A DNA stretch of 64,000 nucleotides, taken from contig JAJDCR010000015.1 in NCBI GenBank assembly GCA_029260735.1, positions 65,825-129,824 of the forward strand. Direction: 5' to 3'. Source of the stretch: Planctomycetota bacterium (lineage in GTDB: Bacteria; Planctomycetota; Uabimicrobiia; Uabimicrobiales; Uabimicrobiaceae). Under the pieces are notes generated by a model. That model saw nothing but the letters and a program-made list of their open reading frames with translations. It searched no databases and was not told where the DNA came from. Positions 11,543-61,688 of this stretch are shown one piece after another. The position numbers and the translations under genes are program-made. Numbering within the stretch: the stretch's first letter is position 1; each line of letters starts with the position of its first letter.

Positions 11543-11549
11543 AGAACGA

Positions 11550-13171: not shown

Positions 13172-13275
13172 AACAGTAGCCAGAATTCTGAATCCAGTAG
13201 CCAGCATCGAACCCTGGCTTCGCTTCGGGGTAAAAAATGGAAGAAACTTTGAGCTTTTCGTAGCTCGTGAGTCGG

Positions 13276-13376: not shown

Positions 13377-13517
13377 TTATCCTGGTACAACTCTCATAGA
13401 TATTGAAGTTTCTTAGGAGTAGCCAGTAGAAAAATACAACGCCAGTGAATAGCCACAAACAAAGACAAGATCTTTAGATGTGATGCTAAATCCTTTTGAA
13501 AATAATTATCGGTAAAA

Positions 13518-14345
13518 ATGAGCCAAATATTAGATCTTTTTCAATATCCTTTTATGCAACGAGCCCTTCTTGTGGGCCTACTTCTATCAATAGTGTGTTC
13601 TATTCTTTCTGTTTTTGTCGTTTTGCGCCGAATGGCTTTTGTTGGCCATGGAATCAGTCATGCCGCTTTTGGTGGGATTGCTTTCGCTCTTCTCGTCGGC
13701 TGGACTCCTGCCTGGGGGGCAGCAATATCTTGCCTTCTGGCGGGCTTTTTCATCGCATGGTTTGGCCATAGTAAAAGAATTTCTGAAGATAGTGCTATTG
13801 GCTTAGCCTTAACAATAACAATGGCTTTAGGAAGTATTTTTATTGCTTTACGCCAAAGCTATACTCCCGATATCTATGGCTACTTATTCGGAAATATTCT
13901 TCTTATTGGCCAAGAAGATCTTTTTCTGATCATCACAATTTGTTTTTTAAACATTGTGCTTTTAGCTTTTTTCTTCCAAGCCTTTTATTCTATTTCTTTT
14001 CATGAAGAGCTTGCCTGGGTTGATGGCTTACCTATTCATAAACTCCGCTTCCTTTTGATTAGCATGTTGGCTCTTTTGATTGTGGTTTCGGTTAAATTAA
14101 TCGGGGTTGTTCTGATTTCGGCTTTTTTACTTATCCCTGGTCTTACTGCCTGCCAGCTCAGTTCACGTATAAACTGGATTTTTCTTCTGGCTTGCTGTAT
14201 CGGAAGCTCTTCTGTTTTTTTCGGCCTCATTATCTCTGCTATCTATGACCTCCCTTCAGGAGCAGTCATTGTTGTACTTCAATTTATTTGCTTTATTTTA
14301 GCTTTGATTTTTCAAAAGATATCTGCATCCAGAGGTCTTCCCTAA
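13518..14345 (+). CDS. Metal (Zn/Mn) ABC transporter permease, ZnuB/MntB (ABC-3) family
   Basis: The N-terminus (FMQRALLVGLLLSIVCSILSVFVVLRRMAFVGHGISHAAFGG) matches the ABC-3 permease signature, and the protein has ~8 predicted TM helices. Confidence 0.8.
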   Translation: MSQILDLFQYPFMQRALLVGLLLSIVCSILSVFVVLRRMAFVGHGISHAAFGGIAFALLVGWTPAWGAAISCLLAGFFIAWFGHSKRISEDSAIGLALTITMALGSIFIALRQSYTPDIYGYLFGNILLIGQEDLFLIITICFLNIVLLAFFFQAFYSISFHEELAWVDGLPIHKLRFLLISMLALLIVVSVKLIGVVLISAFLLIPGLTACQLSSRINWIFLLACCIGSSSVFFGLIISAIYDLPSGAVIVVLQFICFILALIFQKISASRGLP

Positions 14346-14378
14346 ACTCGAAAGCCACAGACTCACAAGGAAAATACA

Positions 14379-17300: not shown

Positions 17301-18659
17301 TTTGCTGTTACCTCGACGAATGAAATCTTTAGTTTAAATTTATCTTTCCCTTCTCCATCTTGGGACAATTTCCATTTTTGGAAGAAAACGGAAAATTTTC
17401 TTTTTACGGAAAACCCTTTAAAAAAACACTCTTTCTACCTCATAACAAACTCTATTGAAAAACTAGAGTTTGATCCCAAAATCAAAAAAATAAAAATCCA
17501 GACTTCCTTTCCTTTTAGTGCAAAAATCACTCCAGCAAGCTCTTTGCAGAAAAGCTCTGGTCTAATTTATTTAAGTTCTTTGCATTATCCGCAAAGTAAA
17601 GATCTCCTTACTTTGGCTATGAAAGAAGATGGCAAAAAAATTTGGCTGAGAAGACTATCTCTTTCCATTCAGCCAAGCAAAGCGATTACTCAAGACAAAA
17701 ATCTTTGGCTTAGTCGTACAGACGGAGCTTTGGTCTTTTCTAAAGCTTCCCCTAGTCAAATTCTTCCTCGTTACAAAATATCTGCTGGACATCCTGTTAT
17801 TCCTATTCAGACAAATCTAGAGTTACTTTCTCAGCCTGGCACACCAGATCGCATACTAGTTTTACGAGATAAAGGTAAGTCTAAAGTTATTGACTCCCGA
17901 GGTAAAACAATCCGTCTCTTTACTCCTCGCCTAAAAATTCACTCCGATGAATTTCTTGGCTTAAGTAGTTACCAACAAAAAATTCTTTTTTTAGCCCATA
18001 AAGACCAACTATCCATTCTTTCTCTCAAAAATGGTAAGCCCCTCTATTCTTCCTACCACTCTTCGAGCTCTCTTACAACCAAACCTCTATTTTACAAAGG
18101 GTCTCTCTTTGTCGGAAACGCAAAAGGAGAACTTCTTCATCTTCGTCTCACGGGTAAAAAAAGCAAGCAATGCAAACTTTACTGGAAATACGCTAGCGAA
18201 GGTGCTATCCACACATCTCCCATAGTCTCTCAAAACAAGATTTACTCTGCTAACGAAAAAGGCCAGTTTTTTGCTCTTCATATTCAAAACAAAAAACTCC
18301 TTTGGCAATACCTTGGTCTTGCCCCTATTCACAGCCAAGTTCTTTTTTACCAAGATAAGTTCTACTTTGGAGATGATGAAGGTTATATTCAGGCCCTTGA
18401 CCTCCAAGGAAAACTCCTCTGGCGCACTCAAGTTCCAGGAGCCATTATTCATAAACCCATTATCTATGGAAAACGTATCTATTTTGTAAATACATTATCA
18501 GAGTGTTTTGGGTTAGACAAAGACAAAGGGGAGTTGATTTGGAAGGAAAAAATTTCAGGAGGAGAAATAACGGCCTATTTCCACTACAATCGTTGCTTGT
18601 ATATGGGAACAGACCGAGGATTTCTATATGTAGTTAGAGATATTGCTCTGAAGAAATAA
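14379..18659 (+). CDS. FHA domain - Ser/Thr protein kinase - TM - PQQ-like beta-propeller protein
   Basis: FHA motif (GRGRNADIIL...SRLHCKIY...GSRNRTVLN). Hanks kinase motifs GFGGMGRIY, VAIK, HRDIKTENILL, DFG and SPE. A TM segment (LIALITLVFVSLAFFWW) and C-terminal PQQ/BamB-like repeats (GYIQALDLQGKLLWRT...). Confidence 0.85.
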   Translation: MQGQIQILNLPTRPIYTINSGDFLVLGRGRNADIILEKDNSVSRLHCKIYYQKKQFWIEDLGSRNRTVLNSKPISIRQALAHKSKFRIGKYSLLFTIKEFPQALPLENDQEVFAQIKRQDKLLGKIAMKLELLSKADLNKTVELQEEMAEEGPYIDLADILLQEHYLSINDLKKIQNYKTDDSFRVPGYKLQELIGFGGMGRIYTGRQLSTGEVVAIKILSDVDDKNKMQMSQQFIQEAKAIAKLDHINIVSGIDFGFSGKHIYIVMEYVDGPTLSQAVKEEGGRFLPDKALDIIKQVARALEHAHQRNLVHRDIKTENILLTFDHVAKLCDFGLVREVGVRDEIDQVFGTVAFMSPEQCKGKVEVDIRSDIYSLGTVFYRILFGRLPFVGSKQEIRDQHVHKPLVFPNEGRHHQKIELAKIIQKMMAKKPSQRYQTPEELLSALKEQDKLFEKFDISNTEEISVFEIEQKSSSKDLSFEATEIRPIPYVNETQAIFAANLNLKNRNKWLIALITLVFVSLAFFWWQRHREEQSNEKLLHDKITQSLENSTEQTLAFYQEYRVLYGEHSRHTLLKEKIQSSLYKKAWEAKEQKAPIQASFLCQKILEIDKETSLAQQASKLQKQIQQDSRLLQKEKRFWESYRQVQLSMEKAIKTGVEEDWEKAQEKLSRMNSRPLPKEFKKEFKKELKKLTRELYDAREKEKLLHYRFYPAEELKLPPQKKDSTILAVQMEKLHLGAQTSFSSLKKAFFQFQDKYIYCLNPKNGETLWTHHLGSLAQVQFIFLNDFKVTKNMEEIDHILVSSPEQSAIWLFDIRGKLVWSCILPQTIRSKLHYHSQKLFVACQGGNLYQIFLATGEIQGAFCTVGESSYFTIHPKTNGLYIASEDGYIYGFHAIDGKLLSRTPYEGVCQAIRWGNDKRIVMLVKKVNNKVEKEKKKQIIVYDTSKVSHWNLTKKETYDFPPKTIKEYVFEDLVFAVTSTNEIFSLNLSFPSPSWDNFHFWKKTENFLFTENPLKKHSFYLITNSIEKLEFDPKIKKIKIQTSFPFSAKITPASSLQKSSGLIYLSSLHYPQSKDLLTLAMKEDGKKIWLRRLSLSIQPSKAITQDKNLWLSRTDGALVFSKASPSQILPRYKISAGHPVIPIQTNLELLSQPGTPDRILVLRDKGKSKVIDSRGKTIRLFTPRLKIHSDEFLGLSSYQQKILFLAHKDQLSILSLKNGKPLYSSYHSSSSLTTKPLFYKGSLFVGNAKGELLHLRLTGKKSKQCKLYWKYASEGAIHTSPIVSQNKIYSANEKGQFFALHIQNKKLLWQYLGLAPIHSQVLFYQDKFYFGDDEGYIQALDLQGKLLWRTQVPGAIIHKPIIYGKRIYFVNTLSECFGLDKDKGELIWKEKISGGEITAYFHYNRCLYMGTDRGFLYVVRDIALKK

Positions 18660-19604: not shown

Positions 19605-20302
19605 TTGAATAAAGATAAAGACAAAAAGAAAAAAGGCAAAGGGAAACCAAGGAACAAGCATGACCTTGGCTACAAACAATTGCTCTCCTTCATTGAAATG
19701 TTTCGCCAATTAATCCAAGGCTATACCGATGAAGATTGGAAGGAAAAACTCGACTACTCAAGAGCACAGCGCGTCGATAAAGAGTATGTTTTACCGGACT
19801 TTAAGGAAAAAGAATCGGATATCGTTTACAAAGTCCCTTTAATAGACAAGGAAAAAAACGAAAAGGAAATTTTTTTGTTTGTCTTGATTGAGCACCAGTC
19901 TACTGTTGATCATTCTATCGCTTTTCGTTTACTTTTCTACTTAACTCATGTTTGGTATGATATGAGCTGTGGAAAACCTTTATGCAGTGGGTCGTTCGCT
20001 TTTTTCAGGATCGAAATGATCCTTCCAACAAAGACATAATTGACGATTTTGATTTCGAAAACAAAAATAAAGAGGAGATTACTACCATGATCGAAACTTT
20101 ACCTGGTCGACTGGTTGAACAAGGTTTCGTTAAAGGCTTGGCAAAAGGAGAGGTTTTAGGCTTGCTTAAAGGTATGAATATTATTTATCCTGGAATTATT
20201 GAAAAATATAAAGAGAGAGTTGATAATGCTCAAGCTGAAGCAGAATTTCAATCTCTCGAAAAAGAAATTCTCCAAGATATAGAGTCTCGCAAGAAAGACT
20301 AA
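19605..20302 (+). pseudogene. Degraded Rpn/YhgA-family (PD-(D/E)XK, Transposase_31-like) recombination-promoting nuclease gene
   Basis: HDLGYKQLL N-motif and LIEHQSTVD (compare Rpn LLEHQSTPD). The gene is split by a frameshift into ORFs 19605-20039 and 19982-20302. The C-terminal GxxxG repeats (VEQGFVKGLAKGEVLGLLKG) are Rpn-like. The total length (~232 aa) is shorter than intact Rpn proteins (~300 aa). Confidence 0.65.
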
Positions 20303-22153: not shown

Positions 22154-23677
22154 TCAAGGCCCAATAATAATTTCCAGTCTACGAATCCAGTATTGACTTT
22201 GGGCAGAAAAATCCATCGCAATGGCAATATCGTTACGTCCTTGGATCAAAAAAGACTCGAGGGGAAACTCTTCTTCGACAAAACCCATATCTCCTACACT
22301 ATACTTTTCCTTGAAAACTTTACCGTTAATGAGGATCGTAATCGGAGAATACCCCTGCTTGCCACCTACGGCAGCCGTTAAGTGATTAAAGCGTAAGAAT
22401 GCTCTAGGAGGAACGTGGGGAAGGGTAAACCCCAAATGAAGCCGAGACCCTTGGTTAAAAGCTAAACATTTAAAATCAGGATGGCTCGCTAAAGCTTGAT
22501 TTCCGATAACTTGCATATTCTCAAGAAGAGGCTGATTTTCTTGCCATTTAAAACTAGCCCATGTACCAACAGGGAACACAACTTCTTTTGTCTCATCTAT
22601 TGCTTGATCTATGGGAGGTGTTTTTTTTATTAAAGAAGAGTTCTCTGTTGAGGAGACTTCTGTTTTCGACTTAGGAGGAAACTGAGAAGCAGAAATTTTA
22701 ATTTGCGAAAGATAAAAACCAATAAAAAGGAAAGCTAAGACAGAGGCATTAATGATCAGAATCGTTTTATTTCTCTCTAGATTTAAATACAAAGTTATCC
22801 ACCAAGGACGAGGCTTTGCGATAATTGATTTACCTTCGATAAAACGTCGGATATCATCTTTCATTTCCCGAGCACTTTGATAGCGACGTTCTCGGCTTTT
22901 CTCCAATGCTTTCAGAATAATAACTTCGACATCCTGAGGGATTTTTCGGTTGAAATGACTTGGTTTAAGAGGGTTTTTTTTGAATATTTGAGTGATTACT
23001 TCGGCAGCACTACTTCCTCGAAAAGGAGTTTGCCCTGCCAGTACTTCATAAAGCATCGCCCCCAAAGAGTAAACATCGGAACGCTCGTCAATCTTACGAA
23101 TAGCTCCATTTGCTTGTTCAGGCGGCATGTAAGCGACTGTTCCCATAATGGTACCTGTACGCGTCATTCGAGTTTGATTACGTGTGCTCTTTGCTAGGCC
23201 AAAATCCATAATAATAGGGTTGCCCCTTTTATCGATCATTATGTTAGAAGGTTTCAAATCTCGATGGATCACTCCCTGACTATGCGAATAAGAAATGCCA
23301 TCCGCAATTTGCTCAAACATATTCAGTGCTTTTTTAACCGGAAATTGCTTCTTTTTTATGAGACTAGAAAGGGGAGAACCTTCCACAAAGTCCATTGTAA
23401 AATAATGTCGGTTGTCGATTTCCCCGGCATCGTAAAGAGAAACAATGTTGGGGTGACGTAATTTAGCCGTGGCTGCTATTTCACGAGAAAAACGTTGGAC
23501 AGAATCTTTATTGCGCGATGCTTCTCCTAGCATAATCTTAATGGCAATACTACGGGAGGTCTGAGGATCAAATGCTTTATAGACAACCCCCATTCCTCCG
23601 CGTCCTAATTCTTCTTGAATCTCATATCGACCAAAGCGATTATTAGAAGAACCAGGGTGGGCTGCTGTAGTTTTCAT
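22154..23677 (-). CDS. Ser/Thr protein kinase with single TM and ~200-aa extracytoplasmic C-terminal domain
   Basis: Hanks motifs GRGGMGVVYKA, AIKIM, HRDLKPSNIMI, DFGLAK and APE, followed by a TM helix (ILIINASVLAFLFIGFYL). Confidence 0.85.
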   Translation of the reverse strand: MKTTAAHPGSSNNRFGRYEIQEELGRGGMGVVYKAFDPQTSRSIAIKIMLGEASRNKDSVQRFSREIAATAKLRHPNIVSLYDAGEIDNRHYFTMDFVEGSPLSSLIKKKQFPVKKALNMFEQIADGISYSHSQGVIHRDLKPSNIMIDKRGNPIIMDFGLAKSTRNQTRMTRTGTIMGTVAYMPPEQANGAIRKIDERSDVYSLGAMLYEVLAGQTPFRGSSAAEVITQIFKKNPLKPSHFNRKIPQDVEVIILKALEKSRERRYQSAREMKDDIRRFIEGKSIIAKPRPWWITLYLNLERNKTILIINASVLAFLFIGFYLSQIKISASQFPPKSKTEVSSTENSSLIKKTPPIDQAIDETKEVVFPVGTWASFKWQENQPLLENMQVIGNQALASHPDFKCLAFNQGSRLHLGFTLPHVPPRAFLRFNHLTAAVGGKQGYSPITILINGKVFKEKYSVGDMGFVEEEFPLESFLIQGRNDIAIAMDFSAQSQYWIRRLEIIIGP

Positions 23678-23874: not shown

Positions 23875-26800
23875 ATGAACTTTTGTATTGCTTATCCAGT
23901 TGATGGGGGCACCCCCGAAGATTCCCACATTGTTTTGGTTCGTACTTATCGAGGGCAAGAACATATTTGCCAAGGAGGAGGGCGCTCTGGTCTTCGAAGT
24001 AATTCAGGAGCTGCTTTTATTTGGGAACGAGTCGCAAGCTCTTTCCAGCAGAAGTATGCTTTGGAGTTTTCCCCTCTTCCGCTCTCAAATCCCCACATAA
24101 AACCAGAAAATTTATCCGACTGCGGTGACTCTGATGCTCTGGCTTGTGCTTTAGCTGTAGGTCTAAGGTCTAGTCAAAAAGAAGAGTATCTTGATCCTAC
24201 AAAATATCCTTTGATTCTGGCTTCTTGTTCTTTTCAATTAACAAACAAGAAACAAGGCTTACGTGGACTAAAACTAGAAGCAGTTACTGATGAAAAGAAT
24301 TTAAAAAGCTCTCTGAGATCTCTCCAAAACAAATGGGCCTGTGCCTGTAACAACAAAGCCAAGGCTCTCATTCTACATAACGACGACGCTTATTTACTAG
24401 CAGACTTTATCAATGTCCCAGTATTTCCGGTAAGTAGTAGTTCTCTAACTCAAATACTCTCTAAAGACTCCCCATTACCAGTTCTTCTTTCTTGCCAAAA
24501 AAAAGATATGTCTCTAGTCGCTAATAATCTAGATATAGACGGTTCTATTTTCCAAGATTCATCTTCCTCTCATTCGGAGAAATTTCCTCCAGAACCTTTC
24601 CGCTTCTTATCTCCTTTTACAAAAAAAGAAGAGAGTATTTTTTTTGGTCGTGAACAAGAAATACATAAGTTAGCAAATACTTTACTTGACCGAGATAGTG
24701 CTTCTGTTTTTTTACTTTTCGGTCAGTCTGGAGTGGGTAAATCCTCTTTTCTTTTTGCAGGACTCATACCTTATTTAGAAAGACAGTTGTGCCAAGTTGT
24801 TTATTTCTCAGGACAAAATTCTTTCGAAAGCTCTCTGGAAAACTTACCTCCGAAAAAAGAAGGTTTCTGGATTAAATTTAGTTCTCTTTGGAATAATAGT
24901 TCTAGTCCAGAGGAGATAAAAAACTCATGGCTAGAAAAAGAGGAGGAGTTAGAGCAACCTCTGATTGTTATTATGGATCAATGGGAAGAAGTTTTAGCAG
25001 AGTCATCACAATTCAGTAAAGACTGGGGAATGTTTTGTCAGACTCTGGAGTGTATCTTTGGTGACTATGACACAAAACCTCAAGGACGATTGATTCTTTC
25101 TTTTCGTAAAGAGTGGCTTTCTCTCGTCGAAAACTCTCTATCTAATCTCCGCCCTTTTCCAGGCAATTTTTTCTTACGTCCTTTGAGTAGAGAAGGTATT
25201 ATTCAAATAATTGAGGGATTAGATAAGAATGAAGAGCTGAGAAATCACTACTCTTTTTTTTGGGAGCCGGGCCTCTCAGAAATTATGGCAGATGGTTTTC
25301 TGACAGACCATGAATCTCCCTTGGCTCCATTTTTACAAATCCTCCTTAGCTTAATGTGGGAAGAATCTGATACCCAAAAACGAAAAGTTTACTTTACCTT
25401 AGACCTCTATCACAAAGTGATCCGCCAAGGCATTTTTGCTAAATATGTCAAGCAACATATAGAAAATCTTGCTGTAGATCGAGAAACGGCGATCAATTCT
25501 GGACTCATTTTAGACATTTTAGACTTTCATATCTTTCTAAACCGAGCTCAAGAACGTTCCCTTGAAGAATTAGAGAAACAATACTCTCATCTTCCTCCTG
25601 GGCTACTGAAAGACATTTTAACCACATTAAAAAATAGTTATTTACTCTGTGATTCTTCACCGGAGAGAGGGAAACGTGCTCAGTTTATTCGACTTGCTCA
25701 TGACAGTTTAGCTCCCATTATTCATGAAGAGGTAAAAAAATCCCACCGAATCGGACAACGATCTCGTCGTATACTAGAGAGCCAAATAGTCAGTTGGCGA
25801 GATAATCACCATGATCTCTTAAGTAATTTTGACTTAGAGACAATTGAACAAGGTCGTCCAGCAATGCGAGCATTAAGCCAAGAGGAAGAAGAGCTTGTTA
25901 GTTCTAGCCATAAGATGGGAGGTATATCTTCTCTTATTGCAACAGTTCAAAGTAATAGTGATAATCAAGCTAAGCTCAAAGCATTGTCGGCAATGCGTCT
26001 TTATCCAGAGAGACACGAGGTCATTATCCCCGCCATGATAAAGCTTATGGAAAAAGCACATGAAGACGACCAAGTAAAAAGAATAGCTGTTGAAATCATT
26101 GGAGAAATGGCAAAGGAAGCAGGCGTCACCATTCCTATACTTGTTGACTTGGTTAAAGCAGGTGAAAACTATCTTTTTGAAGCGATGAATGCTCTCATTA
26201 GAATGGAAGAAATCTCTCGCCCAGCTCTTCAGGTACTTTGCCAAAGTTCACGGGAAAGTATTCGCTTAAACGTTGTTCGAGGTTTTTCTTTAGTCAAAAT
26301 AGAAGGATGCCTACCTTTCTTACTTAAAATGATTGAGAAAGAATCTAGTGGTAAAGTAAAAAAAGAAGCCTACAAAGCTCTAGGGGTAACTTTAGGCTTT
26401 CAATTTCATGAAGAAAAAAAAATCACTAGCAATAACGTTGAGTACTGTTTAGGCCACTATGTTCACGAACAAACAGGAATGGAATTCGTTTTTTTTCCCA
26501 GCGGATCTTTTATGATGGGAAGTGATGAGCGCGATAACTTAGCAAGTGAAAACGAAAGGCCTCGTCATTTTGTTTCCCTGTCTCCTTTCTTCATTTCTCG
26601 TTATCTTGTCACCCAGAAAATATGGGAAGATGTTATGGGGAATAACCCCTCTTACTTCAAAAACGAGCATAAACCAGTAGAAACTGTTACTTGGCATGAT
26701 TGCCAAGAGTTTTGCCAAAAAACAAAGCTACAGCTACCGAGCGAAGAACAGTGGGAGTATGCTTGTCGAGGAGGAACAACAAGTCGTTTTTATTGGGGAC

Positions 26801-27180
26801 CAAATTGGGATCGAAGTAAAATTAACAGTGCTTCCTATTGGGCCAAAGAAGATCTTGTTACCCATACCCAGTGGAAAGAATTTGGTTTTCTGGAAAAATG
26901 GAAAGAACTCAAAGGAGAAACTTCTCTTGTGGGAAATTTCTCTGTCAATCCTTTTGGTTTGTATGATATGCTAGGAAATGTCTGGGAGTGGTGCGAAGAC
27001 AACTGGTCACCGTCTTATGAAAAAGGAAAAAATGCTCCTACCGGAAATGGCCTAGAGCGAGCTTGTCGAGGAGGCTGTGCTTGGTATGCCGCACAAGATT
27101 GTCGGTGCGCTAGCCGAGTAGGAGACTCGGCTGATAACTGCGATTGTTATTTGGGTTTTCGAGTAGTGAAAAATATTTAA
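23875..27180 (+). CDS. Multidomain protein: unknown N-domain - P-loop (STAND-like) NTPase - HEAT repeats - FGE-sulfatase (SUMF1/EgtB/PvdO-family) domain
   Basis: Walker A LLFGQSGVGKSSFLF preceded by FFGREQEIHKL. HEAT/PBS-lyase-like repeats (LSAMRLYPERHEVIIPAMIKLMEKAHEDDQVKRIAVEIIGEMA). C-terminal FGE-domain motifs (RPRHFVSLSPFFISRYLVTQ, ETVTWHDCQEFCQ, LPSEEQWEYACRGG, LYDMLGNVWEWCEDNW, GFRVV). Confidence 0.75.
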   Translation: MNFCIAYPVDGGTPEDSHIVLVRTYRGQEHICQGGGRSGLRSNSGAAFIWERVASSFQQKYALEFSPLPLSNPHIKPENLSDCGDSDALACALAVGLRSSQKEEYLDPTKYPLILASCSFQLTNKKQGLRGLKLEAVTDEKNLKSSLRSLQNKWACACNNKAKALILHNDDAYLLADFINVPVFPVSSSSLTQILSKDSPLPVLLSCQKKDMSLVANNLDIDGSIFQDSSSSHSEKFPPEPFRFLSPFTKKEESIFFGREQEIHKLANTLLDRDSASVFLLFGQSGVGKSSFLFAGLIPYLERQLCQVVYFSGQNSFESSLENLPPKKEGFWIKFSSLWNNSSSPEEIKNSWLEKEEELEQPLIVIMDQWEEVLAESSQFSKDWGMFCQTLECIFGDYDTKPQGRLILSFRKEWLSLVENSLSNLRPFPGNFFLRPLSREGIIQIIEGLDKNEELRNHYSFFWEPGLSEIMADGFLTDHESPLAPFLQILLSLMWEESDTQKRKVYFTLDLYHKVIRQGIFAKYVKQHIENLAVDRETAINSGLILDILDFHIFLNRAQERSLEELEKQYSHLPPGLLKDILTTLKNSYLLCDSSPERGKRAQFIRLAHDSLAPIIHEEVKKSHRIGQRSRRILESQIVSWRDNHHDLLSNFDLETIEQGRPAMRALSQEEEELVSSSHKMGGISSLIATVQSNSDNQAKLKALSAMRLYPERHEVIIPAMIKLMEKAHEDDQVKRIAVEIIGEMAKEAGVTIPILVDLVKAGENYLFEAMNALIRMEEISRPALQVLCQSSRESIRLNVVRGFSLVKIEGCLPFLLKMIEKESSGKVKKEAYKALGVTLGFQFHEEKKITSNNVEYCLGHYVHEQTGMEFVFFPSGSFMMGSDERDNLASENERPRHFVSLSPFFISRYLVTQKIWEDVMGNNPSYFKNEHKPVETVTWHDCQEFCQKTKLQLPSEEQWEYACRGGTTSRFYWGPNWDRSKINSASYWAKEDLVTHTQWKEFGFLEKWKELKGETSLVGNFSVNPFGLYDMLGNVWEWCEDNWSPSYEKGKNAPTGNGLERACRGGCAWYAAQDCRCASRVGDSADNCDCYLGFRVVKNI

Positions 27181-35365: not shown

Positions 35366-36487
35366 TTGAAAAAAACGCTTGTCTATCTATTCTTCCTTTC
35401 TCTTTTATCCTCTCTCCTCTATGCCGACCTAGCTTCGCAATACGAGTCGGCTTATCGTTTAGCCCGCGATAAGGAGGCTCTGAATTTTTCAGACGCAACA
35501 GCGCAGGCTTGGAGTGAAGGTTTTTTGCTGAAAAAAGCGGTTTTTTCGGGAATCGGTTTGCTTGCACAGTATGAGGAAGCAAGTCAATTTGCTTTGGCTG
35601 AGGAAGGCTTGCGTTTGTCCTTGGAAGAAGCGGATCAGTGGGCGAAAAAACTGTTGATTTTGCGCGGGCAAATCGGGGCGGATGCTAGTTTAAGAGATGA
35701 GCTAAATCGTTTTCTAGAAGAAGTGTTTTTAGAGGAAGAAGAGGCTCTGGAGTGGTCTTTGGAGTTTTTTCAATCCGATGCTCCTCTTTATTCTCGCCAA
35801 GGGCTTCTAGAGCGATATACCGATGTCTACTCTTTTGCCCGTGAGAATATCTTTTTTTCTTTTACTCACGAAGAGGCCTTGAAATTAGCGAAAGACTTTA
35901 TCGGGCAACGATTCTACTTCCAACCAGGAATTCCTCTTTTAAGCCAGTATGTTCTCGCCTACAATTTTGCTTTTTCTTCTGAAGGACTGCGCATGACAGA
36001 TGAAGAGGCCCGTGCATGGGCAGAAGAATTTGTCTTAAGCCGAGGTGCTCTAAACCCTAGCCAGAACTTGGAAAATCAATTTCAAGATGCAGAGAATTTT
36101 GCCTTTGCCACAGGAGGCCTAGAAAAAAATAGAAACGAAGCTCGGGATTGGGCTGTTGTCTATATTCAGAAAAAAGGATTGCCTGATATTTCGATTAACC
36201 TCTTCCGACAATACCGCGAAGCCTACTTCTTTGCTTACAACGGACAGGTTCTTTCTCTCATTCGTAAAGTTAGAGATGCTCCGCCGGGCGTTTTTTTGAG
36301 CGATGAAGCAATGAAGTGGTCCCAAAAATTTATTGCCCAACGTTCCGAAATTAAGGGAGAAGAGGATCTTTTAGAGAAATACTTTCAGGCTCTTAATTTT
36401 GCTTACTCTAGCGAAGGCTTGAAGCTTGAAATAGAAGCGGCGCGGGCTTGGGCTATCGGTTTTTTAGAGAAGGAGGAAGTACGATGA
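35366..36487 (+). CDS. Secreted tandem-repeat protein (about six 40-45-aa repeats, motif QYxxAYxFAxxxEGLxxxxEEAxxWA)
   Basis: TTG start with a perfect TAAGGAG RBS 9 nt upstream. Signal peptide (LKKTLVYLFFLSLLSSLLYA). The repeat is visible by eye. The stop overlaps the next gene's ATG (ATGA). Confidence 0.6.
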   Translation: MKKTLVYLFFLSLLSSLLYADLASQYESAYRLARDKEALNFSDATAQAWSEGFLLKKAVFSGIGLLAQYEEASQFALAEEGLRLSLEEADQWAKKLLILRGQIGADASLRDELNRFLEEVFLEEEEALEWSLEFFQSDAPLYSRQGLLERYTDVYSFARENIFFSFTHEEALKLAKDFIGQRFYFQPGIPLLSQYVLAYNFAFSSEGLRMTDEEARAWAEEFVLSRGALNPSQNLENQFQDAENFAFATGGLEKNRNEARDWAVVYIQKKGLPDISINLFRQYREAYFFAYNGQVLSLIRKVRDAPPGVFLSDEAMKWSQKFIAQRSEIKGEEDLLEKYFQALNFAYSSEGLKLEIEAARAWAIGFLEKEEVR

Positions 36488-37281
36488 AAATTATTATCTG
36501 CTCTTTATGCCTCACTCTTTCCCTACTTGTCGGGCAAGAGAAATCAGAAAAACTTTTAATCCCAGGATTCCGTTTTTTAGAGACAAAAACTTACCACTGC
36601 ATTAAACAAAGCTACAATATCGATATATATAAGCATAAGCAAACAGGAATGACCTTTTCTTTGATTCCTCAGGGAGATTTTTGGATGGGAAACGAAGGAA
36701 TTGATAAGCGAGAAATACCTGTTCATAAAGTCTCAGTTTCTTCTTTTTTACTTTCCCAAAAAGAAGTCTCTCAACAAGTTTGGCAGCAGGTTATGTCCAG
36801 TAACCCTTCTCTGAATCAGGGAAAAAGTTTACCCGTTGAAAATGTTAATTGGTTTGAGTGCCAAGAGTTTTGTCAACGTACAGGCCTTAAGTTGCCTAGT
36901 GAAGCCCAGTGGGAATACGCTTACCGAGCCGGAACAAAAACTTTGTATTACTGGGGAGAAGAAGACGGAAATGCTTATGCTTGGCAAGGAGAACTCACCT
37001 CTCCCACCCAAGAAGTCGGGCAAAAGAAACCCAACGCCTTTGGTCTTTATGATATGAGTGGCAATGCTTGGGAATGGTGCCAAGACACTTGGCATTGGAA
37101 TTACTACGGGTCTCCTAAGACAGCAAAGGCTTGGGAAGGTGGCAACGGTCTTTTTCGAGTATACCGAGGCGGAGGATTGGGAGTTTCAACTGTTTACGGC
37201 TCAGCTAGTAGCCGCTCTTGGTTTATAGCTGAGCGTAAATGGAAACAGTTGGGTTTTCGGGTTGCTGCTTATTTAGAATAG
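36484..37281 (+). CDS. Secreted FGE-sulfatase (SUMF1/EgtB/PvdO-family) domain protein, likely non-catalytic
   Basis: ATG 36484 overlaps the upstream stop and has a GAAGGAGGAAG RBS. Signal peptide MKIIICSLCLTLSLLVGQ. FGE-fold motifs (GMTFSLIPQGDFWMG, ENVNWFECQEFCQRTGLKLPSEAQWEYAYRAG, LYDMSGNAWEWCQD, RVYRGGG, GFRVA). It lacks the paired catalytic Cys of true FGE. Confidence 0.8.
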   Translation: MKIIICSLCLTLSLLVGQEKSEKLLIPGFRFLETKTYHCIKQSYNIDIYKHKQTGMTFSLIPQGDFWMGNEGIDKREIPVHKVSVSSFLLSQKEVSQQVWQQVMSSNPSLNQGKSLPVENVNWFECQEFCQRTGLKLPSEAQWEYAYRAGTKTLYYWGEEDGNAYAWQGELTSPTQEVGQKKPNAFGLYDMSGNAWEWCQDTWHWNYYGSPKTAKAWEGGNGLFRVYRGGGLGVSTVYGSASSRSWFIAERKWKQLGFRVAAYLE

Positions 37282-58142: not shown

Positions 58143-58160
58143 AATTTGGGTGAAAAAGTT

Positions 58161-61100
58161 ATGTCTGGTGCATTAAAGTTATTTCAAGCCTCTTCACATT
58201 TTGTAGCAAGAACAGTCGTTTTTATGGCAGAAGATCCTATTTTTGGCTTGCCCAGTGGCAAGATCACGGATATTTTTCTGCGCAATAAAGTTACCTTAGA
58301 TGGAATTCATTCTTGCTACGAAGATTCCGTCATAAGAACTTTCTCTAGTATAAAAGAAGCTCTCGTAACAAAAAAACCGGCTCAGAAAAGATTTGTGGGA
58401 TTCATACAAGAAAAACTACACAAGTTTTTTCAGGAAAATAAACAAGAAGCAAGTCAAAACAAAGCTAACTTAATTAAGCTTTGTGATGAAATCTGTGAAT
58501 CTAAGAACATGCAACGCTTGCTCAAACTCCATGACATAACAATTGTTAATGTAGAGGAAGCCTTTCGTAATATCATAGAAAGTTCATCCTCTCCTCTTTT
58601 ACCTAAAATTATAGACAAAGGACTAGCCGCTATTCTGGAAGGAAAGGCTAGTGAACCGCAGTTCCAATTCATTCGGAAAAGCGATTGGATTGCCAGCGTT
58701 ATGAGCTATCATTTTTATCAACTATGGTTCAAAAATCCTGATTTTAATTTTCCCCGAGATTGTATCGACTTTGCCGCTATGCAACAACGACTACTCTTCA
58801 TTGAAAAACAATTTCAAAGCTATCGGCAAGCGCATAACCAAAGCAAATCAAAACATGCTGCTAATAAAATGCAAAAATTTTTAGAAGCAAAAAACTACCA
58901 GAGACAATTTTTGAATAAGCAAGGCCCCATTTTAGAAAAACTCGAAAAATTTTCTCAACAATCAGAAAAACATCAGAGCAGGGTAGAAGTAGGCAGCATT
59001 TATGTCCAAGAAGATATTAAAGAAGATATTAAAGAAGAGCTTTTTGAAGACATCTCCAGTCCCATTCAAAATGAGGTCGATGAATTCGAAGGATTTGAGG
59101 ATGAACTCTCTTCTGATGAGGTTTACGATATAGATTTTTCTTCTCCTCCGATGATTTCTTCGATTCGAGAAAAAACAAAAAAACCGGAGAATTTTTCTTC
59201 CGAAATAGATGTTATATTTGATGAATCAGATTCATCTCCTGGCTCAGTCGAAGATATAGTAGTCTTAGATGAAGATAGTGGAATGGACATTCCTTCTCCT
59301 ATCCGCAAACCTGTAGTCGAGGCCGATAGAACCTTTGACAGTTCTTTACCTGAAGTCAGCTTAGATCCAGTTATTCGCTCTCAAGAAACAAAGAGACCTA
59401 TCACTGGTGTAATCGACAAAAAGACCTACGGAGCTACAGTTTTAGATAAAGACTCCCAAGGAGAAAAACCTAACTTAAATCGAGAAAAATTCTTAGAAGT
59501 TCAAAAAAACTTAGCTCCGATTATGTCCCTACTTTCTCCTGTAATCCAATTTAATCAATTTTTTGTTCGTCAAAAATTGACTCATTTCAAAAAGAATTTC
59601 CAAGATGCTAAAAAATGCTACGCTGAAATTGATGATAGTTACTCAGATAAAGCATATTTAGCGAATGACCTGGGAGTCATTTTAACTTCTCTATTTAAAC
59701 TGAGTGAAGCTCGTGAGATTTTAAAAAGTGCTAAAAAACTGGGGTCAGAACTTTCTAGCGATTTTCTTTATCAAGTAGAAAAGAACCTTTTCCTTCTTGC
59801 TTTACAGCAAAATAAAAATGATAAGGCTTCTAATCACCTAACTCGTATGCTAAGAAACTTTGAACAATCAAATGATCTTTACGATAAGGATCGATATAAC
59901 TTCAAGAAACTCTTAGGTATTGGCAGCTTAGGTATTTCTCTTGTTTGTGAAGATACCTACAACAAATCACTGGTTGTCTTACATCTTCTATGGAAAGACG
60001 CTCAAGTTGAAGTAAAGGAAGTTCTCTCTGCTCTTTCTGCTTGTGAAATGTCTTCTCATGCCTCTCGGGGAGCAAAAGTTTATGATATTGCCCAACAACG
60101 AGGTGGTCCTCTCTACGTGGTAAGAGAGTTTTGTCCAGGAATGAGTCTTCAGGAATACATCACAAAAAAGAAGAAGACACAGCCTCCCACTTTAGAAGAA
60201 GTTTTAACGATTGCTCGAGAAATTAGCTTAGCACTCAAAGCTTTACACCAAGCTCGCAAGCCTGTTATTCATAACAACTTAAAACCTAATAACATAATCT
60301 TTAATATGAAAACATCTAAAGTTTGCTTACTAGATGGAGGGCTACGCTACTTTTATCCTTCTCTCAACAAAATGAAGATAGCGCAAAAGCAAGCACGGGT
60401 AGGCAAAAGAGAAACCGTTGTTGAAAGCATATATATCAGTTCTCTTTATATGTCACCAGAGCGGCAAAAAGGGGCCATTGGAGCAGCTTGCGATATTTTT
60501 GCTCTAGGAAAAATACTCTTATTTTTGTTAACCGGAGAAACTTCTACTTCCGATAGTATTTCTACGATTCCCGAGCCAGCAAGAGTCCATATCTCTGGAA
60601 CCATCTCCAGAATGCTTCACCCTAAAGTTGATCAAAGACCAAGTGCAAAAGAGCTCGCTCGCGAGTTTGACCAAATATTAGCTAAGTTGACCGAAGAAGA
60701 AGAAGAGGAAGATATTTTTGGTGAATTGCTTGATGAAGCAGAAGAAGATATCATGCAAACTCCGCTTGGCGCAACTAACAGTTTTGAAGAAGAGCGAGAT
60801 CCTGTTGCTCTTACCGATGAAATTCCTATTCCCGTTTTACAAACTAAAATCCGAGCTATTCCTGTTCGTAAAAAATACTTTATGCCTGGTTTTTATTGGC
60901 AAGGAACGGAAATCGTTTGCGAAAAAGATGATTCTGTAATGTGCTACGTCCCCGAAGGAGAATTTTATCGAGGAAGCAAGGATATATACGCCAAACGCGA
61001 TGAACAGCCTGATGCTAAAGTCCATTTGGAAGCCTACCTTGTAGATAAAAATCTGGTTACCTGGGGCCAATACAAGAGATTTCTCAAAGAAACGAACAAC

Positions 61101-61688
61101 TGGATTAGTTGGCGCTGGAAAATGCCTCCTCTTCCAGAATGGGCTATAGAAGATGACCATCCTGTTGTCAATATAACTTGGGAACAAGCCAAAGCATACG
61201 CTCAGTGGGTAGAAAAAGATCTTCTAACCGAAGCGCAGTGGGAAAAAGCGGCTAAAGGAGGCGTTGTTTTAGAATCAGGTATCAGCAAAACAGCTAACCC
61301 AACTCCCCGGCGTTCTTTTCCCTGGGGTGATGACTCTCCCAATTTCCAAGGGCAATTCAGAGCTAACTACTGCAAATCTAAAAAGTTTGGTAGCAAAAGT
61401 ACTTCCCCTATAAGCACTTTTCCTCAAGGGGCCTCCCCCTATGGATGTATGGATATGTCAGGTAATGTCCATGAATGGTGTAATGATTGGTACGAGAGTT
61501 CTTATTACCGAAAAAAAGAAATCAAAAACCCCAAAGGGCCCAAAACCGGAAAAGAAAAATGTCTTCGCGGTGGAGCTTTTGATAGCGTTGCTCTCGACTT
61601 AAGTACAACAAGCCGTCATCGTGGGATGCCAGACATGACGAGTCCCAAAGTAGGTTTTCGTTGTGGTAAAACCCTGGGGAAAAAATAA
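58161..61688 (+). CDS. Multidomain protein: unknown N-domain - acidic linker - pseudokinase - FGE-sulfatase (SUMF1/EgtB/PvdO-family) domain
   Basis: ATG 58161 is the likely start (the track's TTG is at 58146), 19 nt after the gltX stop. The kinase fold has a degenerate catalytic loop IHNNLKPNNII (HRD becomes HNN) and DGG in place of DFG. The C-terminal FGE fold shows HPVVNITWEQAKAYAQW, LTEAQWEKAAKGG, MDMSGNVHEWCNDWY, LRGGAF and GFRCG. Confidence 0.75.
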   Translation: MSGALKLFQASSHFVARTVVFMAEDPIFGLPSGKITDIFLRNKVTLDGIHSCYEDSVIRTFSSIKEALVTKKPAQKRFVGFIQEKLHKFFQENKQEASQNKANLIKLCDEICESKNMQRLLKLHDITIVNVEEAFRNIIESSSSPLLPKIIDKGLAAILEGKASEPQFQFIRKSDWIASVMSYHFYQLWFKNPDFNFPRDCIDFAAMQQRLLFIEKQFQSYRQAHNQSKSKHAANKMQKFLEAKNYQRQFLNKQGPILEKLEKFSQQSEKHQSRVEVGSIYVQEDIKEDIKEELFEDISSPIQNEVDEFEGFEDELSSDEVYDIDFSSPPMISSIREKTKKPENFSSEIDVIFDESDSSPGSVEDIVVLDEDSGMDIPSPIRKPVVEADRTFDSSLPEVSLDPVIRSQETKRPITGVIDKKTYGATVLDKDSQGEKPNLNREKFLEVQKNLAPIMSLLSPVIQFNQFFVRQKLTHFKKNFQDAKKCYAEIDDSYSDKAYLANDLGVILTSLFKLSEAREILKSAKKLGSELSSDFLYQVEKNLFLLALQQNKNDKASNHLTRMLRNFEQSNDLYDKDRYNFKKLLGIGSLGISLVCEDTYNKSLVVLHLLWKDAQVEVKEVLSALSACEMSSHASRGAKVYDIAQQRGGPLYVVREFCPGMSLQEYITKKKKTQPPTLEEVLTIAREISLALKALHQARKPVIHNNLKPNNIIFNMKTSKVCLLDGGLRYFYPSLNKMKIAQKQARVGKRETVVESIYISSLYMSPERQKGAIGAACDIFALGKILLFLLTGETSTSDSISTIPEPARVHISGTISRMLHPKVDQRPSAKELAREFDQILAKLTEEEEEEDIFGELLDEAEEDIMQTPLGATNSFEEERDPVALTDEIPIPVLQTKIRAIPVRKKYFMPGFYWQGTEIVCEKDDSVMCYVPEGEFYRGSKDIYAKRDEQPDAKVHLEAYLVDKNLVTWGQYKRFLKETNNWISWRWKMPPLPEWAIEDDHPVVNITWEQAKAYAQWVEKDLLTEAQWEKAAKGGVVLESGISKTANPTPRRSFPWGDDSPNFQGQFRANYCKSKKFGSKSTSPISTFPQGASPYGCMDMSGNVHEWCNDWYESSYYRKKEIKNPKGPKTGKEKCLRGGAFDSVALDLSTTSRHRGMPDMTSPKVGFRCGKTLGKK

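What the first reader, a model, noticed from the sequence alone, without database searches (positions are those of the whole stretch)
23875..27180. STAND-like NTPase + HEAT + FGE-sulfatase domain protein; FGE-sulfatase domains recur with kinases three times in the window
The FGE-sulfatase fold (SUMF1/EgtB/PvdO family) appears in three places. It is at the C-terminus of this NTPase, which is divergent from an STK gene. It is in a secreted protein (36484-37281) convergent with a kinase operon. And it is fused to a pseudokinase (58161-61688). This repeated pairing with (pseudo)kinase and NTPase signalling modules is hard to explain as a metabolic enzyme and suggests the domain serves as a ligand or redox sensing module, or a peptide-modifying module, in signalling. 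An NTPase+HEAT+effector-domain layout is also reminiscent of STAND-type defence or surveillance proteins. The unrecognised 240-aa N-domain could be an effector.
Basis: partly seen in the sequence, partly recalled or inferred. Interest (0 to 1): 0.65.

Follow-up and report, generated by a model that had tools for sequence, protein, structure and literature searches.

The report
STAND switch with Lon-like protease head
This gene encodes a bacterial NLR-like switch protein with a lectin-type (non-enzymatic FGE-like) sensor at its tail, a published architecture, but its unrecognised 240-residue head folds like a Lon protease, a head type not named in the four key papers I read.

Summary
ORF 23875-27180 (+, 1101 aa) has nSTAND1 at 241-646 (Pfam E 6e-30), weak HEAT repeats, and an FGE-sulfatase domain at 870-1099 (E 1.5e-41). 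Two more FGE domains lie at 36484-37281 (secreted) and 58146-61688 (fused to a pseudokinase).

None of the three is a credible formylglycine-generating enzyme. The C-x4-C copper-binding pair is missing and the window holds no sulfatase gene.

The layout, variable N-terminal effector, STAND NTPase and C-terminal FGS lectin-fold sensor, was already described by Kaur et al. 2021, Doré et al. 2024 and a 2026 Nature STAND survey.

In 5 of 5 related loci this domain follows a partner gene; in 4 of 5 the partner carries an anti-sigma-like H-x3-C-x2-C motif. The window has no such partner.

Kinase adjacency is not above chance (P about 0.11). I found no DGR and no defence-island context.

Verdict: a new variant of a known kind, of moderate interest.

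The parts
23875..27180 (+). Whole gene: Lon-like domain, nSTAND1 NTPase, HEAT-like helical region and FGE/C-type-lectin-fold domain (1101 aa)
   Evidence: ORF list and translation; Pfam. An identical protein, P0001, exists in NCBI on a 161,972-bp contig.
23875..24594 (+). N-terminal domain (residues 1-240): Lon-protease-fold domain, predicted Ser-Lys peptidase effector
24130..24132 (+). Codon of Ser86 (motif G-D-S-D-A-L-A-C-A-L-A), predicted nucleophile
   Evidence: Invariant in 55/55 and 36/36 aligned family members. It sits just before helix 88-99 of the model, as Lon Ser679 sits just before its helix (inference from secondary-structure order).
24223..24225 (+). Codon of Ser117 (motif L-x-S-C), invariant; positional counterpart of Lon Thr704
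   Evidence: Invariant. The equivalence to Lon is inferred from strand order, not from a superposition.
24331..24333 (+). Codon of Lys153 (motif S-L-x-N-K-W), predicted general base
   Evidence: Invariant. It lies in helix 143-159, 11 residues before strand ALILH. E. coli Lon Lys722 lies 11 residues before strand TVLIP (sequence).
24595..25812 (+). nSTAND1 NTPase module (residues 241-646), with Walker A at 24721-24747 and Walker B at 24961-24990
   Evidence: Pfam PF20703 E 6.1e-30; motifs located. 100+ homologs have CHAT, TIR or trypsin heads and WD40, TPR or FGE tails.
25813..26481 (+). Helical HEAT-like linker or sensor region (residues 647-869)
   Evidence: Pfam HEAT_2, 30 bits against a 27.7 cutoff, weak.
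26482..27171 (+). FGE-sulfatase / C-type-lectin-fold domain (residues 870-1099), predicted non-catalytic ligand sensor
   Evidence: Pfam E 1.5e-41. PDB sequence hits: human FGE 3e-19 and the DGR variable protein TvpA 4e-14. It lacks the C-x4-C pair.
27058..27153 (+). Loop between RGG and GFRV (residues 1062-1093). It is hypervariable among homologs and here carries six Cys.
   Evidence: Alignment of 28 alignable homologs. Cys enrichment P = 4e-5. No template-repeat copy in the window and no codon signature of DGR mutagenesis.
36484..37281 (+). Second FGE-domain gene (secreted, 46% identical to the target's FGE domain, no catalytic Cys). It overlaps the upstream gene 35366-36487 by ATGA.
58146..61688 (+). 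Third FGE-domain gene: unknown N-terminal region (about 580 aa), pseudokinase (nt 59895-60707) and FGE domain (nt 60939-61664)
   Evidence: Pfam; kinase motifs read; no catalytic Cys.
22154..23677 (-). Divergent Ser/Thr kinase gene next to the target. It is a neighbour only, with no evidence of a functional link.
   Evidence: Pfam Pkinase E 2.6e-57; adjacency statistics.

Best explanation
The gene encodes a cytoplasmic, NLR-like (STAND) sensor-switch-effector protein.

Shown:
- It has an intact nSTAND1 P-loop NTPase in the middle.
- A HEAT-like helical region and an FGE-type C-type-lectin-fold domain sit at the C-terminus. That domain lacks the formylglycine-generating active site.
- A 240-residue Lon-protease-fold domain with an invariant Ser/Lys pair sits at the N-terminus. 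In homologs this position holds caspase-like (CHAT), TIR or trypsin effectors.

Inferred:
- The lectin-fold domain, helped by the HEAT region, binds a macromolecular ligand through its variable RGG...GFRV loop.
- Binding releases the NTPase to exchange nucleotide and oligomerise.
- Oligomerisation brings the N-terminal Lon-like domains together and switches on Ser86/Lys153 proteolysis. Lon domains work as rings, and CalpL is activated by oligomerisation.
- The output is cleavage of one or more substrates. In relatives, the likely substrate or partner is the product of the gene immediately upstream, a small protein that often carries an anti-sigma-like H-x3-C-x2-C motif. This suggests regulated proteolysis that releases a downstream response, as in CalpL/CalpT/CalpS.
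- In this window no such partner is encoded. The substrate is therefore elsewhere in the genome, or the protease acts more broadly (abortive-infection-like).

Whether the trigger is an invader molecule (immunity) or an endogenous or environmental ligand (signalling) is not settled.
For: - Architecture: Pfam nSTAND1, HEAT and FGE; Walker A and B intact.
- Homologs: among the 120 homologs listed (188 below E 1e-5), the NTPase is flanked by CHAT, TIR or Trypsin_2 heads and by FGE, WD40 or TPR tails. The head position is therefore the swappable effector slot.
- Literature: Kaur et al. 2021 describe STAND NTPase-FGS systems, define nSTAND1, and propose FGS as an intracellular lectin-fold invader sensor (PMC8195603). 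Doré et al. 2024 describe nSTAND1+FGE(CLec) proteins as putative antigen sensors (PMC10907252). A 2026 survey shows STANDs with FGE-sulfatase sensors (PMC13581612).
- FGE domain is non-catalytic. HMMER puts Tyr at the human Cys336 position, with a 3-residue deletion in the active-site loop. The other two window domains have no Cys there. All 28 alignable nSTAND1-FGE homologs lack the pair and vary strongly in that loop. No sulfatase gene in the window.
- N-domain is a real family: 60 hits in 1.84 billion representatives, 15 below 1e-30, always at the N-terminus. It is fused to nSTAND1, nSTAND3/NACHT, HEAT, TPR, DUF4384 or FGE tails.
- Partner gene: all 5 related loci with visible upstream DNA have a tightly coupled upstream gene B. 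It is one family, with H-x3-C-x2-C in 4 of 5.
- CalpL precedent: a SAVED-Lon protease that cleaves the anti-sigma factor CalpT (abstracts of bioRxiv 10.1101/2024.05.08.593097 and 10.1101/2025.07.01.662501, listed).
Against: - There is no experiment; ligand, oligomerisation and proteolysis are all inferred.
- The Ser/Lys equivalence to Lon rests on fold match plus secondary-structure order, not on a residue-level superposition.
- Sequence methods see no link to Lon. The profile search against PDB found nothing, and hhalign against E. coli Lon found nothing.
- The window has no partner A or B gene and no second copy of the N-domain.
- There is no DGR reverse transcriptase or template repeat.
- There is no PADLOC hit for the protein beyond a P-loop fragment. 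Neighbours are a kinase, a STAS protein, a ManC-like enzyme, and HEAT and SPFH proteins, which is not a defence island.
- The six-Cys cluster in the sensor loop hints at metal or redox chemistry that this model does not explain.
Confidence: 0.55

Rival explanations
1. It is an ordinary signalling protein of this kinase-rich organism. The FGE-type domain senses an endogenous or environmental ligand (possibly metal or redox, via the Cys-rich loop). The STAND-gated Lon-like protease then performs regulated proteolysis of a transcription regulator, with no role in immunity.
For: - The window is a chromosomal signalling neighbourhood with MutS and GluRS, six Ser/Thr kinase genes, histidine kinases and a STAS protein.
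- There is no defence island and no significant PADLOC hit.
- In the 2026 survey only 198 of 589 STAND clades were classed as defence-associated (PMC13581612).
- Relatives are coupled to an anti-sigma-like partner, which is a signalling logic.
- The Cys cluster is unique to this protein.
Against: - Close NTPase homologs carry classic immune or death effectors (CHAT, TIR, trypsin).
- The closest full-architecture homolog, P0002, sits among a TIR gene and IS66 elements.
- Published analyses assign STAND-FGS proteins to conflict systems.
- This rival shares the mechanism of the best explanation and differs only in the biological trigger.
Confidence: 0.3
2. The N-terminal Lon-fold domain is not a protease. 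It is an adaptor or binding module, like the Lon-like domains of RadA/Sms, ComM and BrxL, or an 'effector-associated domain' that recruits a separate effector.
For: - There is no sequence-level match to Lon_C.
- Kaur et al. note that STAND-FGS proteins often carry EADs at the N-terminus.
Against: - Ser86 and Lys153 are invariant across 55 sequences that share only about 16-29% identity over their full lengths (25-43% within the N-domain). They fall at the positions of the Lon dyad in the order of secondary-structure elements.
- The EAD principle expects a second copy of the domain fused to an effector nearby. None is in the window, and none was seen in the five related loci apart from the gene itself.
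Confidence: 0.2
3. The FGE domains are working enzymes of the SUMF1/EgtB/OvoA/PvdO kind (formylglycine generation, sulfoxide synthase or similar), here fused to regulators.
For: - The Pfam FGE-sulfatase matches are strong (E 1e-40 to 1e-47).
- The best PDB sequence matches are human and bacterial FGEs.
- The target keeps a Cys that HMMER aligns with human Cys341, plus extra Cys nearby.
Against: - The Cys336 position is Tyr. The loop is 3 residues shorter and the spacing is C-x7-C-x-C, not C-x4-C. Domains 2 and 3 have no Cys there.
- Pfam reports no DinB-like iron-binding domain in any of the three proteins. EgtB and OvoA need that domain (established knowledge).
- NCBIfam scores are 47-77 bits against cutoffs of 350-500 for EgtB, PvdO, GldK and SenA.
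- No sulfatase gene lies in the 64 kb.
Confidence: 0.05
4. The target is a diversity-generating-retroelement (DGR) variable protein. Its FGE-domain loop is hypermutated from a template repeat elsewhere in the genome, making it an adaptive 'antigen receptor'.
For: - STAND-FGS proteins are frequent DGR targets, with the RT either nearby or elsewhere in the genome.
- The loop 1062-1093 is the region that varies among homologs.
- It is rich in residues reachable from AAY codons (C, Y, D, A, S, G, N).
- A PDB sequence match to the DGR protein TvpA exists.
Against: - No second copy of the 3' end of any of the three FGE domains exists in the window at word size 7.
- No reverse transcriptase appears among the window's ORFs.
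- Third codon positions in the loop are mixed and no different from the rest of the gene.
- The rest of the 162-kb contig and the genome could not be read.
Confidence: 0.12

Closest known systems
STAND NTPase-FGS conflict systems (Kaur, Iyer, Burroughs, Aravind 2021, eLife 10:e70394), also treated as putative antigen sensors by Doré et al. 2024 (PNAS) and shown as FGE-sulfatase-sensor STANDs in the 2026 Nature survey
   Same: The three-part order is the same: a variable N-terminal effector or adaptor, a STAND NTPase of the nSTAND1 clade, and a C-terminal FGS (Pfam FGE-sulfatase) lectin-fold domain lacking FGE chemistry.
   Different: - The head is a Lon-fold domain. The lists quoted in those papers (TIR, DRHyd, calcineurin, caspase, trypsin, kinase, FHA, EAD1/2/7/8, bDLD3) do not include it, and 'Lon' does not occur as a whole word in Kaur 2020 or 2021.
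- A HEAT-like region is inserted before the FGS domain.
- No DGR, no second EAD copy and no defence neighbours are in the window.
Lon protease proteolytic domain (MEROPS S16; E. coli Lon Ser679/Lys722) and Lon-fold relatives (LonB/LonC, birnavirus VP4)
   Different: - No detectable sequence similarity (8-15% identity in structural alignments; no Pfam Lon_C hit; hhalign negative).
- The domain is N-terminal and is followed by a STAND NTPase, rather than being C-terminal to an AAA+ unfoldase.
- It has about 60 extra residues.
CalpL-CalpT-CalpS (type III CRISPR SAVED-Lon protease, anti-sigma factor, ECF sigma factor)
   Same: A Lon-fold protease is fused to a ligand sensor and activated by sensor-driven oligomerisation. 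Relatives of the window's N-domain are encoded directly after a small partner with an anti-sigma-type H-x3-C-x2-C motif.
   Different: - The sensor is FGE/HEAT/TPR, with or without a STAND NTPase, not SAVED.
- There is no CRISPR or cyclic-nucleotide context.
- The window's gene has no partner gene.
- A sigma factor is suggested only weakly in one related locus.
Avs / bacterial NLR-like antiviral STANDs with N-terminal effectors
   Same: The logic is the same: a C-terminal sensor, a central STAND NTPase and an N-terminal effector that is activated on oligomerisation (established knowledge).
   Different: - The NTPase clade differs (nSTAND1).
- The sensor is a lectin fold rather than a TPR-like solenoid.
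- There is no PADLOC Avs hit.
- The effector type differs.
Formylglycine-generating enzyme (SUMF1) and its fold relatives EgtB, OvoA, PvdO, PorK/GldK and the DGR variable protein TvpA
   Same: The fold family is the same (Pfam PF03781; PDB sequence hits at 3e-19 to human FGE and 4e-14 to TvpA).
   Different: The catalytic Cys pair is missing, there is no DinB domain, and scores lie far below every equivalog cutoff.

Membership tests
STAND NTPase, nSTAND1 clade (Pfam PF20703) | Profile match above the curated threshold | tested here: met
   105.5 bits against a cutoff of 27.1, E 6.1e-30, profile positions 1-376 of 379.
STAND NTPase, nSTAND1 clade (Pfam PF20703) | Intact P-loop (Walker A GxxxxGK[ST]) and Walker B acidic residue | tested here: met
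   GQSGVGKSS at 283-291 and LIVIMDQWEE at 363-372.
STAND NTPase, nSTAND1 clade (Pfam PF20703) | NTP-dependent oligomerisation upon ligand binding | not testable with these tools
   Needs biochemistry or cryo-EM.
STAND NTPase-FGS conflict system (Kaur et al. 2021) | STAND NTPase followed by a C-terminal FGS (PF03781) domain, with an effector or EAD at the N-terminus | tested here: met
   Pfam order. The N-domain is a mobile N-terminal module with a protease fold. Description in PMC8195603.
STAND NTPase-FGS conflict system (Kaur et al. 2021) | Frequent (not obligatory) association with a DGR: reverse transcriptase, accessory protein and template repeat | tested here: not met
   Within the 64-kb window there is no TR copy, no RT among the ORFs and no codon signature.
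STAND NTPase-FGS conflict system (Kaur et al. 2021) | Extra copies of the same N-terminal adaptor fused to other effectors nearby (the EAD principle) | tested here: not met
   hmmsearch of the N-domain profile against the six-frame window finds only the gene itself.
Catalytic formylglycine-generating enzyme (SUMF1-type) | Two active-site Cys, five residues apart (human Cys336/Cys341), that bind Cu(I) | tested here: not met
   In the target, Tyr is at the Cys336 position, the loop has a 3-residue deletion, and the spacing is C-x7-C-x-C. Domains 2 and 3 have no Cys. The catalytic role of the pair is established knowledge.
Catalytic formylglycine-generating enzyme (SUMF1-type) | Sulfatase substrate genes in the neighbourhood | tested here: not met
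   No Sulfatase family hit among the 35 main ORFs scanned with Pfam.
EgtB / OvoA / SenA sulfoxide synthases, PvdO, PorK/GldK | Equivalog-level profile score and, for EgtB and OvoA, an N-terminal DinB-like iron-binding domain | tested here: not met
   NCBIfam scores are 17-77 bits against cutoffs of 350-500. No DinB domain in Pfam results.
Lon protease proteolytic domain (S16) | Lon_C fold | tested here: met
Lon protease proteolytic domain (S16) | Ser-Lys catalytic dyad at the conserved positions | tested here: inconclusive
   Ser86 and Lys153 are invariant in the family. They match Lon Ser679/Lys722 in secondary-structure order and spacing. No residue-level superposition or activity test was possible.
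Lon protease proteolytic domain (S16) | Sequence-profile membership (Pfam Lon_C) and fusion C-terminal to an AAA+ module | tested here: not met
   No Pfam hit at E<=10. The profile against PDB is negative and hhalign is negative. The domain is N-terminal to a STAND NTPase. It is therefore a distinct Lon-fold family, not a Lon orthologue.
CalpL/CalpT/CalpS-type protease signalling | Lon-fold protease with an adjacent anti-sigma partner and sigma factor | tested here: not met
   The window has no homolog of partner genes A or B. Five of 5 related loci have partner B (H-x3-C-x2-C in 4 of 5), but a sigma factor is only weakly suggested in one (Sigma70_r2 E 0.013).
CalpL/CalpT/CalpS-type protease signalling | SAVED cyclic-oligoadenylate sensor | tested here: not met
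   No SAVED domain in Pfam. The sensor is HEAT plus FGE.

The most novel reading that the evidence does not exclude
The N-terminal domain defines an undescribed family of sensor-coupled, Lon-fold Ser-Lys proteases. These normally act in a three-gene A-B-C module, cleaving the upstream anti-sigma-like (H-x3-C-x2-C) partner B when a C-terminal FGE-lectin, HEAT, TPR or STAND sensor binds its ligand. This would be a CalpL/CalpT-like regulated-proteolysis pathway that is wired to protein or glycan sensors and NLR-like switches instead of cyclic nucleotides. The window's protein would be the STAND-gated, partner-less form, with a unique Cys-rich (metal or redox?) sensor loop.
Probability: 0.3. Interest if true: 0.7.

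Novelty: new variant of a known kind. Interest (0 to 1): 0.5.

Why it matters
STAND/NLR-like proteins with lectin-fold (FGS) sensors are predicted bacterial pattern or antigen receptors. According to Doré et al. 2024, none had been characterised experimentally at that time.

Recognising the head of this one as a Lon-fold Ser-Lys protease adds a new effector type to that class. It also gives two point mutants to test (S86A, K153A).

The recurrent pairing of the same head with an anti-sigma-like partner in other genomes suggests an output that is transcriptional rather than suicidal. This parallels the CRISPR-associated CalpL system and gives a concrete candidate substrate.

The analysis also removes a false lead. 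The FGE-kinase neighbourhood pattern in this window is what chance predicts in a kinase-dense genome.

Tried and rejected
1. Exact-sequence look-ups of the target and of GluRS found no contig. The one genome-contig scan found only FGE-domain relatives in other organisms. I therefore could not read the rest of the 162-kb source contig, name the organism, or search the genome for a DGR or a partner gene. GluRS homologs suggest only an uncultivated lineage: 65-67% identity to unnamed metagenome proteins and 56-58% to 'candidate division CSSED10-310' MAGs.
2. The third homologous-protein search, using the N-domain alignment, returned nothing.
4. The afdb50 fold library was unavailable.
5. hhalign of the N-domain profile against the E. 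coli Lon protease domain and the profile search of PDB sequences were negative. The Lon link is visible only at the fold level.
6. DGR test: no TR-like repeat and no codon signature. I rejected DGR for the window but left it open for the genome.
7. I asked whether the second STAND-like protein in the window (43769-50191) is a paralog of the target's NTPase/HEAT part. BLASTP shows no similarity.
8. PADLOC, NCBIfam and Pfam on the N-domain alone gave nothing.
9. A literature search for Lon-type heads on STAND/NACHT proteins found none in the held library. No supplements are held for the 2026 survey. Absence from the library is not proof of absence.

Full report
**Observation.** The window carries an intact ORF at 23875-27180 (+), 1101 aa. 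Pfam places three modules on it:
- nSTAND1 (PF20703) on residues 241-646 (E 6.1e-30, 105.5 bits against a cutoff of 27.1);
- a weak HEAT_2 signal around 784-837;
- an FGE-sulfatase domain (PF03781) on 870-1099 (E 1.5e-41).

Walker A (GQSGVGKSS, 283-291) and Walker B (LIVIMDQWEE, 363-372) are intact.

One is a secreted 265-aa protein. Its true start is ATG 36484, behind an AGGAGG site, and it overlaps the stop of the upstream gene by ATGA. The other is an 1180-aa protein (58146-61688) with a kinase-like domain and a C-terminal FGE domain. That kinase domain has lost the VAIK Lys, the HRD Asp and DFG, so it is a pseudokinase by inspection.

**Surroundings.** The window is an ordinary chromosomal stretch (MutS, GluRS) from a signalling-rich, low-GC (about 38%) uncultivated bacterium. 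It has six genes with Ser/Thr-kinase-type domains among 32 main genes. It also has histidine kinases, a STAS protein, a dynamin-like protein, and a second STAND-like giant (STK-GGDEF-AAA_16-HEAT, 43769-50191).

With that kinase density, the chance that both stand-alone FGE genes lie next to a kinase gene is about 0.11. In both cases the kinase is on the opposite strand. Only the pseudokinase-FGE fusion is a physical link. No sulfatase gene, reverse transcriptase or recognised defence gene was found.

**The FGE domains are not FGEs.** HMMER alignments to human FGE put Tyr at the Cys336 position of the target. They also show a three-residue deletion in the active-site loop. One Cys aligns with Cys341, but the spacing is C-x7-C-x-C rather than C-x4-C. 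Domains 2 and 3 have no Cys there at all.

In the 28 nSTAND1-FGE homologs that could be aligned over this region, the pair is absent everywhere. The stretch between RGG(S) and GFR is the most variable part of the domain.

Scores against EgtB, OvoA, SenA, PvdO and GldK models are 17-77 bits against cutoffs of 350-500, and there is no DinB-type domain. The domain is best read as a C-type-lectin-fold binding module, as the literature proposes.

One oddity remains. The target's variable loop (residues 1062-1093) holds six Cys (P = 4e-5 relative to the rest of the protein). No homolog shares this.

**What is already known.** Kaur et al. 2021 (PMC8195603) describe exactly this class. A STAND NTPase (they coin nSTAND1) is followed by an FGS domain, and the N-terminus holds a changing set of adaptors (EAD1/2/7/8, bDLD3) or effectors (TIR, DRHyd, calcineurin, caspase, trypsin, kinase, FHA). 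They propose that FGS binds invader molecules directly, and they note frequent linkage to diversity-generating retroelements.

Doré et al. 2024 (PMC10907252) show DGR-diversified nSTAND1/NACHT-CLec proteins and call them putative antigen sensors. A 2026 STAND survey shows FGE-sulfatase sensors among prokaryotic STANDs (PMC13581612).

My homolog search agrees. The NTPase has over a hundred relatives at 30-38% identity, with CHAT, TIR or Trypsin_2 heads and FGE, WD40 or TPR tails. The overall architecture is therefore a known kind.

**The N-terminal 240 residues.** They match nothing in Pfam (E<=10), NCBIfam or PADLOC, and nothing among the 120 NTPase homologs.

An exhaustive HMMER search of 1.84 billion representatives found 60 relatives, 15 of them below 1e-30. 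In every one the domain is at the N-terminus, and the C-terminal parts vary. The tails include nSTAND1, nSTAND3/NACHT, HEAT, TPR, DUF4384 and FGE, including direct head+FGE and head+2xFGE proteins.

Alignment shows five invariant positions (P8, S86, S117, L150, K153) and these motifs: GFPVD, SGA, G-x-S-D-x-x-A-C-A-L-A, L-x-S-C, S-L-x-x-K-W and A-L-V-L-H-x-x-D-A. From the G-x-S...ALA motif I suspected a Lon-like Ser-Lys peptidase and tested it by fold.

The order of secondary-structure elements matches E. coli Lon. Ser86 sits just before helix 88-99, as Ser679 sits before its helix. Ser117 is on the next strand, as Thr704 is. Lys153 is in helix 143-159, 11 residues before strand ALILH, just as Lys722 lies 11 residues before TVLIP.

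This residue equivalence is an inference; I had no coordinates to superpose. Sequence methods do not see the relationship. The domain is therefore a separate Lon-fold family, not a Lon orthologue.

**Context of the head domain elsewhere.** In all five related loci where upstream DNA is visible (L067, L071, L072/73, L074, L076), the head-bearing gene is the last of three tightly packed genes.

The middle gene, B (138-259 aa), is one family in all five. In four of five it carries an H-x3-C-x2-C motif, the signature of zinc-binding anti-sigma factors. Pfam zf-HC2 scores E 6e-4 in L071.

The first gene, A, is one family in three loci. In a fourth it shows a weak Sigma70_r2 match.

This recalls CalpL-CalpT-CalpS, where a sensor-fused Lon-type protease cleaves an anti-sigma factor. 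The window itself has no A or B homolog and no second copy of the head.

**Mechanism proposed.**
- Shown: the domain order, the intact P-loop, the non-catalytic lectin-fold tail and the Lon-fold head with invariant Ser/Lys.
- Inferred: the FGE/HEAT tail binds a ligand, the nSTAND1 module oligomerises with NTP, the clustered Lon-like heads become active, and one or more substrates are cleaved. The substrate could be a B-type partner encoded elsewhere or a broader set.
- Confidence: about 0.55 for the whole chain, about 0.9 for the fold assignment, about 0.85 for 'not an FGE enzyme', and about 0.4 for an immune rather than housekeeping trigger.

**Rivals.**
- A non-immune signalling role shares the mechanism and differs in the trigger. 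It is favoured by the chromosomal signalling context and the lack of defence neighbours.
- A non-catalytic adaptor head (RadA/ComM/BrxL-like) is disfavoured by the invariant Ser/Lys.
- A working FGE/EgtB-type enzyme is disfavoured by the missing residues, missing domains and missing sulfatases.
- A DGR-diversified receptor shows no sign in the window, but the rest of the genome is unreadable.

**Novelty and score.** What I could not find described, in Pfam, NCBIfam, PADLOC, PDB sequences or the papers I read, is the Lon-fold head and its A-B-C module. I therefore rate the finding a new variant of a known kind, with interest 0.5.

The most novel reading not excluded is a new family of sensor-gated Lon-fold proteases acting on anti-sigma-like partners. 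I give that a probability of about 0.3 and an interest of 0.7 if true.

Noticed in passing
Related loci L067:6454-9503, L071:6418-10811, L072:4392-8723, L074:4798-10137, L076:4459-8451: There is a conserved three-gene module A-B-C with overlapping or <=4-bp junctions. C carries the Lon-fold head plus a variable sensor (FGE, HEAT, phosphonate-binding+FGE, or nSTAND1). B is one family in all five loci, with an H-x3-C-x2-C (anti-sigma-like) motif in four. A is one family in three loci. The window has no A or B homolog.
   Followed up: partly
window 27058-27153 (residues 1062-1093 of the target): Six cysteines (C1064, C1068, C1076, C1078, C1089, C1091) lie in the 32-residue variable loop of the FGE/lectin domain. 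Enrichment is P = 4e-5 against the rest of the protein, and the cluster is absent from all homologs examined. It may be a metal or redox site; this is unexplained.
   Followed up: partly
window 35366-36487 (+) and 36484-37281 (+): A 373-aa protein with a signal-peptide-like N-terminus and roughly 40-residue internal repeats (no Pfam or NCBIfam hit) overlaps the secreted FGE-domain gene by ATGA. This looks like a two-gene secreted operon, which explains the FGE gene's context better than the convergent kinase does.
   Followed up: partly
window 43769-50191 (-): This is a 2140-aa protein with Ser/Thr kinase, GGDEF, AAA_16 (STAND-like P-loop) and HEAT repeats. It is a second effector-NTPase-repeat giant in the window. 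BLASTP shows no relation to the target's NTPase/HEAT part.
   Followed up: partly
window 37318-42952 (-): Three same-strand genes sit in a row: a 298-aa Ser/Thr kinase, an HtrA-like Trypsin_2-PDZ protease (377 aa), and a 1167-aa kinase-WD40 (two propellers) protein.
   Followed up: no
window 14379-18659 (+) and 1740-3824 (+): FHA domains head both a 1426-aa kinase with a PQQ-type beta-propeller and a GAF-PAS histidine kinase. FHA-linked signalling is unusually dense in this window.
   Followed up: no
window 5172-13171 (+): Three large genes lie in a row: 816 aa with no family, 1255 aa with a weak SrfB match (E 1e-5, below cutoff), and 463 aa with a weak YscO-like match. They could be an SrfABC-like cluster.
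   Followed up: no
window 19605-20039 (+): A 144-aa fragment matches the YhgA-like Transposase_31 family (E 6e-16). It is the only mobile-element trace near the target gene.
   Followed up: no
window 53589-56282 (-): An 897-aa bacterial dynamin-like protein (Dynamin_N, E 3e-19) lies next to MutS.
   Followed up: no
L067:2526-4907 and L076:1-377, 12775-14451: Loci that carry relatives of the Lon-fold head also encode kinase-FGE fusions or FGE and kinase genes nearby. Kinases and FGE domains may simply be co-expanded in these large genomes.
   Followed up: no
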